Assembly (NCBI RefSeq): GCF_009914755.1
Contig: NC_060926.1
Direction: 5' to 3' (one strand)
From: the human T2T-CHM13v2.0 reference genome, Homo sapiens
DNA: 64,000 nucleotides
Shown here one piece after another: positions 29,973 to 37,361 of the stretch. The position numbers were made by a program, and so were the translations under genes. Positions within the stretch are counted from its first letter, which is position 1. The number at the start of each line of letters is the position of its first letter. The notes under the pieces are model-generated. The model worked only from the letters and a program-made list of their open reading frames with translations, was not told where the DNA came from and searched no databases.

Positions 29973-31522
29973 GTAAGTACCCTGATTCTTTTTCAGATTC
30001 ATCTGACACAATTGATAAAAATAAAATTCCCAAGGGAAGTAACAATTTTAGTGTCCCCTTTTCCTATGTGCCATGGAACAAAGAGGGAACTTTGCACCAC
30101 CCAGAAACGTGTGTAATCAGTAAGGACTGTTTTTCCTTTCCATGTGAAGTTGCTGCTCATCATCATCATCATAAAATGTCATATTCTTTCTTGTGTTGTT
30201 TGTTGGAAAGAAGAGGAAAAGGGGTTCCCTTGACTTCTGATAGTCATTATTTTGAGAATGTTTATTTAAGGGCTCCAGCTGAGATTGAGGTGAAACAAAA
30301 GATGGATTCTTTGGAGGGTTATGAAAGAAATGAAGAAGGTTTACAGAAAGAATCATCTCAATGTTTTGAACTAACGGAGACTAGAAATAATTTAGTATCT
30401 TCAGAAGTGCAACCCAGATTCTTAGAAATACAGTATATTAGGAATGTTATAGCTCCTGATAATTCTGTAAAAGTTTCAGAAGCACATGTACTCTCCAGGG
30501 GACATAATACCTCTAAAATGGAGGCTTCTGGTTGGATTGTTATATCCAACTTGGATGAGATATCAGAACAACTGTATTTTCAAGAGGAAAGAAACCAAAA
30601 GGGAACTTCTCTTTTTGGTGAGAAAAATATTGATGCTGCTGAAAATATAGCCTTTGAGGCAGTTATTGCCTCTATTGAGCCTTCTAAGAAAGAGAGTACA
30701 GTAAATGAAATCCAAGCTGACATCAATAAATATTTAACAGATGACAGCCGAGAGAGAGCCAAAAAATCCAGATCTTTCTCCATTAAATTATAATGATGAA
30801 ACCTCTTTATTTGATAGGCTTAAACATCCATGCTATCAGTCTACTCCTGGGGTGTTTGAACCAGCAGCTTCAAAACCATTGTTGCATAAAAAGGGTAATA
30901 ATGATAGCTTCCTATACTGGCATCCAAATTTAAAATTACCCCCTAATGCTCTTCAGAAAATGTTCATTAAGCCACTTTGTGTTATTCCAGAGCTTAAGTC
31001 ATCTGCTTCTTTGAGTGAAAAATCTTACAACCAGGCTGTTGGTCTTGGCAAAACACAGTCAGCTTTATTTCAGTGTGATATAGGCAATGAACCATTTCTT
31101 CCCTTTGGGAAGATAAAGTCTGTTCCTTCTCTTGACCTTGCAGAGAAGATAGGATCTTCAGATGTTATTTATCATGTGAAAGTATTAACTTCAGAATCTT
31201 TGGTTTTACAAGATTTAAAGCAGCCAACCTTTGAAGAAGTTGCAGATTACTCAAACTTTAATTTGGGTAAGGATGTTAACTGTAGAAATGCCATTAAAGG
31301 TCCACCTGCAGCTGTAGGAAGCAGCTTTTCAGCAAACTTGGTGGCATGTGATGCAAAGTCACAAGGTGCTTGTACCATTGACCAGTGATGCATCATTAAT
31401 TGCAGTCGCCCAAGAGACATTGCTGAAAGCTGATATAGGCCAAGGTGAAAGTCCTTCGTGTGTGGGAGCTGAGCCTAGTTTTACTATACATACAATTATG
31501 CAAAATGACTCCTATTTTGTAG
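29973..31522 (+). other. ALMS1 intron 5 (1550 bp) with fossil coding capacity: three overlapping ORFs bridging exon 5 to exon 6
   Basis: ORFs 29771..30793 (exon 5 frame), 30741..31388 and 31348..31734 (exon 6 frame); no recognisable transposon sequence. Confidence 0.75.
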
Positions 31523-31623
31523 AGGGCCTGCAGGGGAAGGTTGAGTCTGACGTCATTACTCTGGATGGCCTAAATGAAAATGCTGTTGTATGCAGTGAAA
31601 GAGTTGCTGAACTACAAAGAAAG
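31523..31623 (+). CDS. ALMS1: ALMS1 coding exon 6 (101 bp, phase 1/0): (K)GLQGKVESDVITLDGLNENAVVCSERVAELQRK
   Basis: ttttgtag|AGGGCC acceptor, AAG|gtgaga donor; lies in ORF 31348..31734. Confidence 0.9.
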
Positions 31624-31726: not shown

Positions 31727-31876
31727 GTACATGACCAATGTCATTTGACTGGTGAGTACATTGAGCTAGCAGCTTTAGAGAAATTTCATGGTGATCTAGA
31801 GATGCATGACAGCTCCCTGCACTGGCAGCCTACTTTACAACTACCATCTGAGAAGGAAAGCAATTTTGAAAAGCCT
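31727..31876 (+). other. Candidate fossil 150-bp in-frame ALMS1 exon with inactivated acceptor
   Basis: Long pyrimidine tract ending cctGG, 50 open codons in phase 0/0, CCT|gtaagt donor. Confidence 0.5.
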
Positions 31877-35946: not shown

Positions 35947-37267
35947 CATATTATATATATGCATATATATTTATATATATTTATGTGTATGTATATATGT
36001 GTATATATATAGCCTGTACTTCAGAGAAGTTTCCTGTAGGAGTGAGGTAATTGAAAACTATGAACTTTGTGCTATGTGGAGAGCAGGGCTTCTTAGCAGC
36101 CTTATCATTTTGAGTTGGATAATTCTTTGTTATGGTGGGAGGCGTGTTTCCTGAGTATTGTAGGATGTTTTGCATCATCCATCCCTGGCCTCTATTCACT
36201 AGATACTAGTAACATCCCCTCCCCTCACAAGTTATGACAGCAAAAAATGTTTCCAGGCATTGTCAAATGTCCCTTGATGGGTACAAAATCTTCACAAGTT
36301 GAAAAGTAGAGAAACCTGTATGGGCAGTAGATGTAGATATAGAAATAGATATGGAATGTTCATTTCCACACTTCACATGGCTTCCTAAGAATGTTCATTA
36401 CTACACAATGAAAAATTGATGAAAGAGGATAGAAAAATTCATGCTTATGTACATTTTTAGACTTCATCCTGAGAAGATGTGACTGAAATAATCTTTTTAG
36501 GGAAATAAAGACAACCTAAAAATGATATATATTTTTATGTGAGGGTGCACTGTGAATTTGGTGAAAAGTTGTACATGTTTAGGTATTAATGTCACCAATA
36601 TTGGTTTCTAATTTCTTTTCTAGCAAGAACTTGTGACTTGATGAAACATTAGGAACTTCTTTTTGAGCAGTTACCCTTTACTTCACTACCAATTTATAGT
36701 TTCCACTACTTTTGTTTTAAGAAGTTTGAGGACTTATGCTTGTTGGTAACCGATCACAGTTATAGTTCTTTGATACTCTCATTTTTCTTCTAAACATTTG
36801 TGAGTTTCTAGAAAATATTCCTGTTTTCTTTTTCCTTCTTACTGTTTCTTGTCCACAGTGCACCTCTCTACCTTAAAAAGAAATACCTGAGCTTGTCCAG
36901 AATAATCCCATGGTTCAAATTCTGCGATGATCATAAGGAGCAAACTTCTGAGTAACAGAACACTTCTAAGCATACTATCTATAATATTTTATCTAGACAG
37001 ATTTCTAAGCCCTCAGGATGATTTAGTCTTCTAGAGTTGACCCAATAAAATATGACCTATATATGAATTCAGAAGGTTTGAGATTATGATCTTAAGTAAC
37101 TAGTATAACTTCTTAGTGTTCCTCTTTGTAAAAATGAAGGATTATTTTTAGCAGATGAGGTTTGAAATTAATATCTTATTTTCTTCATTTCTTCGTAGGT
37201 GGGTCATTCTAATCTGGGCATTAATGAGTCTTTTTCATTTTTATTGCCTTCATTTGTTCCACATAAG

Positions 37268-37361
37268 CCAACAAGAGAGTCGGAATATCACTCTTCAGAT
37301 CTCAGAATGTTGAGGATGTCTCCTGACACTGTGCCAAAGGCTCCTAAACATTTAAAAGCAG
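37268..37361 (+). CDS. ALMS1: ALMS1 coding exon 7 (94 bp, phase 0/1): PTRESEYHSSDLRMLRMSPDTVPKAPKHLKA(G)
   Basis: cataag|CCAACA acceptor (unusual AAG), CAG|gtacgt donor; peptide recalled from ALMS1; phases match exons 6 and 8. Confidence 0.88.

What the first reader, a model, noticed from the sequence alone, without database searches (positions are those of the whole stretch)
37174..37267. Strong upstream in-frame acceptor with AG|GT (recursive-splice-like) 69 nt before exon 7's weak AAG acceptor
Seen: tcttattttcttcatttcttcgtag|GTGGGT at 37198/37199 is a textbook acceptor. The 69 nt to exon 7 are 23 open in-frame codons (VGHSNLGINESFSFLLPSFVPHK), while the exon 7 acceptor is an atypical AAG. 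Splicing exon 6 (ends AAG) to 37199 recreates AAG|GTGGGT, a plausible donor, leaving a 69-nt mini-intron near the minimum human size. Inference: either a +23-aa isoform or ancestral exon start, or two-step recursive removal of intron 6.
Basis: partly seen in the sequence, partly recalled or inferred. Interest (0 to 1): 0.7.

Follow-up and report, generated by a model that had tools for sequence, protein, structure and literature searches.

The report
ALMS1's ancestral exon 7 start
The reference mRNA of the human Alström-syndrome gene ALMS1 leaves out 69 bases that most other mammals' ALMS1 protein models keep as the start of exon 7; the old splice site is intact and likely still makes a 23-residue-longer form of the protein in people.

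Summary
The upstream acceptor at 37197-8 is the ancestral start of ALMS1 exon 7. The 69 nt encode a conserved 23-residue segment. It is present directly before exon 7 in 42 of 51 mammal-type ALMS1 proteins that cover the region, in 29 of 35 named species exclusively. A same-length motif is present in 19 of 25 distant representatives. One carrier is a spliced-transcript contig. The GT after the AG is the first codon, valine in 27 of 27 ungapped orthologues. Human RefSeq instead uses an internal AAG acceptor with its own U-rich tract, at a codon that is Glu in most mammals. Best reading (0.65): an ordinary in-frame alternative 3' splice-site pair, with the short form made in one step and the long form likely still made. 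Two-step re-splicing is possible but unsupported (0.12): pangolin models use the internal site where no good donor would be rebuilt, and the exon junction complex normally represses such donors. Human RNA usage could not be tested. The reference also lacks two other ancestral coding pieces (intron 5 and a dead exon at 31727-31876).

The parts
37168..37172 (+). Branch-point-like TTAAT (A at 37171, 27 nt before the upstream AG end)
   Evidence: Motif scan; predicted, not mapped
37175..37198 (+). Polypyrimidine tract and TAG: ancestral exon 7 acceptor
   Evidence: 18 of 20 pyrimidines, best in the window's set; orthologous proteins start exon 7 here
37199..37267 (+). 69-nt ancestral 5' part of exon 7, 23 open codons; intronic in RefSeq
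37199..37204 (+). GTGGGT = Val-Gly codons; would form a donor-like site once joined to exon 6
   Evidence: 6 Watson-Crick + 2 G-U matches to the donor consensus versus 6 + 1 for exon 6's own donor; Val in 27 of 27 ungapped orthologues
37209..37253 (+). Branch-point-like motifs for the internal acceptor (A at 37212, 37224, 37237, 37243, 37252)
   Evidence: Motif scan; predicted
37229..37267 (+). U-rich tract and AAG: internal acceptor used by RefSeq; AAG is codon 23 (Lys; Glu in 24 of 27 orthologues)
   Evidence: annotation given with the finding
37268..37361 (+). RefSeq exon 7 (94 nt; 163 nt if started at 37199)
   Evidence: Annotation
31523..31623 (+). Exon 6, ends in phase 0 with AAG (Lys; Glu in most non-primate orthologues)
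31727..31876 (+). Dead 50-codon exon that precedes exon 7 in many mammals; open frame and donor intact, acceptor reads GG
   Evidence: tblastn; sequence

Best explanation
The AG at 37197-8 is the ancestral exon 7 acceptor and the 69 nt are conserved coding sequence; human ALMS1 likely treats the two AGs as an ordinary in-frame alternative 3' splice-site pair, likely reaching the RefSeq AAG in one step through its own branch point and tract while the old site likely still yields a 23-residue-longer isoform. Shown: the sequence anatomy, conservation of the 23 residues, and their position as the start of exon 7 in other mammals' protein models. Inferred from amino-acid differences only: single-base changes on the human line (codon 23 Glu to Lys giving AAG; Ser14Phe, Val15Leu and Pro18Ser adding U) strengthened an internal acceptor in a stretch already pyrimidine-rich because of what it encodes. 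Inferred: when the long junction forms, the exon junction complex would repress the donor rebuilt at the junction, so the 23 codons stay. Untested: the human ratio of the two forms.
For: 42 of 51 mammal-type proteins covering exon 7 carry the segment directly upstream (41 by score threshold plus P0054 with a shortened copy); 29 of 35 named species long only, 5 short only, 1 both. P0004, 1830 aa on a 5545-nt contig and so necessarily spliced, joins exon 6 to the segment. 19 of 25 distant long representatives have a 23-residue motif in the same register; 8 of 8 tested carry the ALMS motif but no mammalian repeat. The human segment is 57% identical to orthologues against 65% for exon 7 proper, n=27 species. 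Both acceptors occur in Manis javanica models, where codon 23 is also Lys; M. pentadactyla models reach the internal site from two different upstream exons. 3.6% of human exons rebuild a donor and 93.8% of those are constitutive, repressed by the EJC (PMC6224609 passages).
Against: No human transcript or peptide with the segment was found or could be sought. The only ape protein retrieved (gibbon P0002) is short, and full-length primate proteins lay outside the search lengths. RT-PCR across exons 4-8 in one cell line reported variants only at exons 2, 13 and 23 (PMC5279758). Why a weaker-looking downstream AAG wins in the reference is unexplained. Most orthologue evidence is gene models, not cDNA. 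Camelids have Lys at codon 23 yet their two models are long.
Confidence: 0.65

Rival explanations
1. Silent relic: the site is ancestral but no longer used in human cells, so human and ape ALMS1 has simply lost the 23 residues, as it lost the exon at 31727-31876 and the coding middle of exons 5-6.
For: RefSeq and the gibbon model are short. The L-1236 RT-PCR reported no exon 7 variant. Human departs at 3 of 13 conserved columns in the segment against 1 of 17 in exon 7. Two neighbouring ancestral coding pieces are already lost.
Against: The acceptor remains the strongest-looking in the window and the frame is intact. The excess of changes is not significant (Fisher p 0.29). No convincing RNA structure hides the site (z -0.97).
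Confidence: 0.2
2. Two-step route: exon 6 is first spliced to the strong old acceptor, the rebuilt donor is then used, and the 69 nt leave as a mini-intron, giving the RefSeq junction by re-splicing inside an exon.
For: The rebuilt donor has 6 + 2 matches, like exon 6's own. Human has Lys (AAG) at the end of exon 6 and Gly at codon 2 (G at +5), where the commonest non-primate junction is Glu then Val-Asp (10 of 35 junctions tallied; only 6 of 35 begin Val-Gly). Loss of the intervening exon brought exon 6 next to this site. Human introns of 43-65 nt are spliced (PMC8363638 passages). It would explain why the short form is the reference despite the stronger upstream AG.
Against: Pangolin short forms follow an exon ending in Pro, and the M. 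javanica segment starts Val-Asp, which predicts a poor rebuilt donor (inferred from amino acids). Mouse, mink and elephant models start Val-Gly after exon 6 and stay long. The EJC represses donors at exon starts. ALMS1 is absent from the supplements searched in two recursive-splicing studies and no paper holds both terms. Donor to branch-point spacing would be only 14-54 nt.
Confidence: 0.12
3. Chance cryptic acceptor, or a tandem duplication of the intron end.
For: The 69 nt before and after the AG share a local alignment scoring 28. Open frames of this length are common.
Against: 4 of 92 control pyrimidine-rich sites score as high. The peptide is conserved across mammals and distant vertebrate-type proteins.
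Confidence: 0.02

Closest known systems
Frame-preserving alternative 3' splice site with lineage-specific shift of the major acceptor
   Same: Two acceptors share one donor and one downstream exon, each has tract and branch-point motifs, the difference is a multiple of three, and the upstream one is ancestral.
   Different: Nothing in kind. Here the reference uses the derived, non-YAG site and drops part of a conserved motif; human use of both sites is not shown.
RS-exons repressed by the exon junction complex (Blazquez 2018, PMC6224609; passages read)
   Same: The long exon 7 starts with GT and rebuilds a donor-like site at the junction.
   Different: In RS-exons the second step skips the exon to the next intron's acceptor. 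Here it would use an acceptor 69 nt inside the same exon. No intermediate or EJC dependence is shown.
4.1R (EPB41) intrasplicing (Parra 2008; paper not held; one-line description seen in 10.1101/159350; rest recalled)
   Same: Two-step splicing proposed to reach a weaker downstream acceptor past a stronger upstream one.
   Different: As recalled, there the second donor lies in the upstream first exon and the outcome depends on the promoter. Here it would be rebuilt at the junction, and no two-step evidence exists.
Classic recursive splice sites in very long introns (Sibley 2015, Duff 2015; seen only as Table 1 of PMC10156609)
   Same: YAG|GT with a strong tract.
   Different: Intron 6 is 5.6 kb against medians near 550 kb for the sawtooth sets, and the site is a coding exon start rather than a mid-intron ratchet point.

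Membership tests
Alternative 3' splice-site pair | Two acceptors for one donor and one exon, each with its own tract and branch-point motif | tested here: met
   (motif level only)
Alternative 3' splice-site pair | Both acceptors appear in transcripts or models of one species | tested here: inconclusive
   Met for Manis javanica models (P0007 short; P0025-27 long); no human long form among retrieved proteins
Alternative 3' splice-site pair | Human junction reads at both sites | not testable with these tools
   No RNA-seq tool
Ancestral coding exon segment | Translated segment conserved in place and frame in orthologues | tested here: met
   42 of 51 proteins; 19 of 25 distant representatives
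Recursive splice site / RS-exon | YAG|GT with polypyrimidine tract | tested here: met
Recursive splice site / RS-exon | Rebuilt donor above MaxEntScan 5.52 | tested here: inconclusive
   Only a consensus-match count was possible: 6 + 2, within the 5-8 Watson-Crick range of the 8 real donors; threshold
Recursive splice site / RS-exon | Very long host intron (classic sets) | tested here: not met
   Intron 6 is 5644 nt; classic medians about 550 kb, though PMC10156609 reports shorter hosts
Recursive splice site / RS-exon | Lariat or sawtooth evidence of the intermediate; dependence on the rebuilt GT; EJC sensitivity | not testable with these tools
   ALMS1 not found in 4 and 5 supplementary files of two studies; those files may not hold the full site lists

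The most novel reading that the evidence does not exclude
Human ALMS1 edits out part of a conserved exon by re-splicing. Primate-line changes at both ends of the 69 nt, plus loss of the exon in between, turned the ancestral start of exon 7 into a 69-nt second-step intron that escapes EJC repression. The reference protein is then made in two steps, and EJC strength would set how much ALMS1 keeps a motif conserved in distant vertebrate-type orthologues.
Probability: 0.12. Interest if true: 0.75.

Novelty: new member of a known kind. Interest (0 to 1): 0.4.

Why it matters
ALMS1 is the Alström-syndrome gene. If the long form is made in human tissue, 69 bases now read as intronic are coding, and the upstream AG is a real splice site, so variants there may be misclassified. 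The position is 69 nt before c.1342 by this genome's exon 1 length, or before c.1339 in NM_001378454.1 numbering (recalled). Reference cDNA constructs would lack part of one of the few N-terminal motifs shared with distant orthologues, a motif with no Pfam family and not among the features listed in a 2018 review (PMC6327082 section 4). If the two-step route were true, it would be a clear natural case of re-splicing creating a new intron inside an exon.

Tried and rejected
Tandem duplication of the intron end: 4 of 92 controls score as high. RNA structure hiding the upstream acceptor: unpaired probability 0.25 versus 0.54 in one fold, but z -0.97 and a different structure in a shifted window; not used. 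Relaxed selection on the human segment: 3 of 13 versus 1 of 17, p 0.29; inconclusive. A processed pseudogene that would record an old splice pattern: none found in the human genome by DNA or protein search (the second used a stricter first look). ESM Atlas: no usable hit. Pfam: no family for the segment. Internal GAG at 37226-8 as a third acceptor: tract 11 of 20, not favoured. Literature: no paper describing this acceptor in searches; the alternative c.1342 numbering was not searched. Short models of Sousa and Bos mutus copy the whole human RefSeq exon pattern while related whales and oryx are long, so I treated them as probable projections from the human protein, not independent evidence; they remain in the counts.

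Full report
1. Observation. Every coordinate in the finding is right. The upstream site has 18 of 20 pyrimidines, a branch-point-like TTAAT 27 nt upstream and TAG followed by G. It scores above all 8 annotated acceptors of the window on this simple count. It is one of 12 such sites among 3455 intronic AGs, and the only one of those followed by GT or close to a real acceptor (post hoc threshold). The annotated exon 7 acceptor is the only non-YAG of the 8 but has a normal tract (15 of 20) and five branch-point-like motifs inside the 69 nt. The open frame is not evidence by itself (27.8% of intronic 69-mers are open).

2. What it is. Three protein searches and one profile search gave 123 proteins, most of them ALMS1 relatives. 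51 contain a mammal-type exon 7 peptide at alignment score 70 or more; the other 72 do not cover it or are too distant and were left out of this count. Of the 51, 41 carry the 23-residue segment directly upstream by threshold, and P0054 carries a shortened copy, so 42; 9 lack it. By named species: 29 of 35 long only; short only in gibbon, Manis pentadactyla, Bos mutus, Sousa and Elephantulus; both in Manis javanica. Whales and cricetids are over-represented, and nearly all are gene models. P0004 is the nearest thing to transcript evidence: 1830 aa on a 5545-nt contig, covering exons that span more than 40 kb in human, with exon 6 joined to the segment. The first residue is Val in 27 of 27 ungapped orthologues, so the GT after the AG is a conserved codon. 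An unnamed read-through protein, P0083, suggests that the intron end is also homologous (17 of 18 bases compatible; 7 of 369 pyrimidine-rich windows, this site among them, reach that); this is weak support. Among 25 distant long representatives, 19 have a motif that places exactly 23 residues between the preceding exon's homologue and exon 7's. The 8 tested have the ALMS motif and no mammalian repeat, which fits non-mammalian orthologues given the review's statement that the repeat region is mammal-specific (PMC6327082 section 4); the library gives no names.

3. What changed in human. Against the plurality of 16 spread-out mammals, human differs at codons 2, 7, 10, 14, 15, 18 and 23. Read as single-base changes (inferred; I had no orthologous DNA), those at 14, 15 and 18 add U to the internal tract, and that at 23 turns a Glu codon into AAG. 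Pangolin and camelids also have Lys at 23. Manis javanica has long RefSeq models and a short GenBank model. M. pentadactyla has four short models, one joining exon 1 straight to the internal site, a pattern not copied from human. The two camelid models are long. The human segment is no more decayed than chance allows (57% versus 65% identity; 3 of 13 versus 1 of 17 conserved columns, p 0.29).

4. How it most likely works. The exon 6 donor chooses between two acceptors 69 nt apart, in frame, giving exon 7 of 163 or 94 nt. The short form needs no special mechanism, since its branch-point motifs and tract lie downstream of the old AG. When the long junction forms it rebuilds a donor-like 9-mer with 6 Watson-Crick and 2 G-U matches, like exon 6's own 6 and 1. 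This is common: 3.6% of human exons do so, 93.8% of them are constitutive, and the EJC represses the rebuilt site (PMC6224609 passages; review PMC7355637 passages). I put this reading at 0.65, a silent relic at 0.2, two-step re-splicing at 0.12 and chance at 0.02.

5. The two-step rival. For it: the human junction is a better donor than the commonest non-primate one (Lys instead of Glu before it, G at +5); short introns of 43-65 nt are spliced (PMC8363638 passages); and it would explain why the weaker-looking site is the reference. Against it: pangolins reach the internal site where the rebuilt donor is predicted poor; mouse, mink and elephant start Val-Gly after exon 6 and stay long; the spacing is tight (14-54 nt to the candidate branch points). 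ALMS1 did not appear in 4 supplementary files of PMC10156609 or 5 of PMC6224609; these may not hold full lists, and the bioRxiv supplements of 10.1101/159350 could not be seen.

6. Evidence against my reading. I have no human RNA. The gibbon model is short, and primate full-length proteins exceed the search lengths. One RT-PCR study with an exon 4-8 amplicon reported variation only at exons 2, 13 and 23 (PMC5279758 passages and primer table); it does not discuss exon 7.

7. Known or new. Ten literature searches were run; the seven naming ALMS1 listed no paper on this acceptor. Passages of PMC9845408, PMC13704990 and PMC8324351 were irrelevant. PMC5126111 and 10.1101/159350 were read as passages. 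Parra 2008 and Sibley 2015 were not held. I recall, without any call to support it, that Ensembl/GENCODE lists ALMS1 transcripts whose coding numbering shifts by 69 across this region; if so the long form is already annotated there and novelty falls further. The kind of thing is well known; this instance is absent from the RefSeq table given.

8. Context. The 69 nt are one of three ancestral coding pieces missing from the human reference. Intron 5 aligns to other mammals' protein at about 62-73% identity in bat, carnivore and whale models, with two frame changes in human (24 of 59 proteins tested align inside it). A 50-codon exon at 31727-31876 keeps its frame and donor but has GG at its acceptor. 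Unlike those two, the 69-nt piece keeps both its frame and its acceptor, which is the main reason to expect it is still used. Interest 0.4: an ordinary mechanism, but a testable gap in the reference of a disease gene.

Noticed in passing
window 29973-31522 (RefSeq intron 5): Former coding sequence. Bat, carnivore, whale and oryx proteins run through it continuously from exon 5 to exon 6 at about 60-73% identity; human has two frame changes near 30750-30790 and 31372-31385. An intronised middle of an ancestral exon of about 2.1 kb; rodent-type P0004 removes other internal pieces.
   Followed up: partly
window 31727-31876: Dead exon between exons 6 and 7: 50 open codons and a good donor, but GG at the acceptor. 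Present in bat, whale, carnivore, pangolin and titi monkey models and joined to exon 6 in unnamed primate-like proteins P0061 and P0062. A one-base variant could in principle revive it in frame.
   Followed up: partly
window 31850-31876 plus 37199-37310: The end of the dead exon, the 23 residues and the start of exon 7 together match one strongly conserved motif of about 45 residues in distant ALMS1 representatives, with no Pfam family. The human reference protein keeps only its last part.
   Followed up: partly
P0010, P0011, P0019, P0021: Whale and pangolin models join exon 1 directly to exon 7, skipping exons 2-6 in frame. Human exon 1 also ends in phase 0 with AAG, so the same isoform is possible in human.
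   Followed up: no
window 37171-37178, 37246-37254, 37261-37262: A loose resemblance to minor-spliceosome AT-AC signals (recalled consensus) spanning the same region; each element departs from the consensus, probably chance.
   Followed up: no
L002, G000:C2:73398922-73399248: Exon 1 coding part is 327 nt in this genome, so exon 7 starts at c.1342 here; the poly-Glu tract length shifts the numbering.
   Followed up: yes
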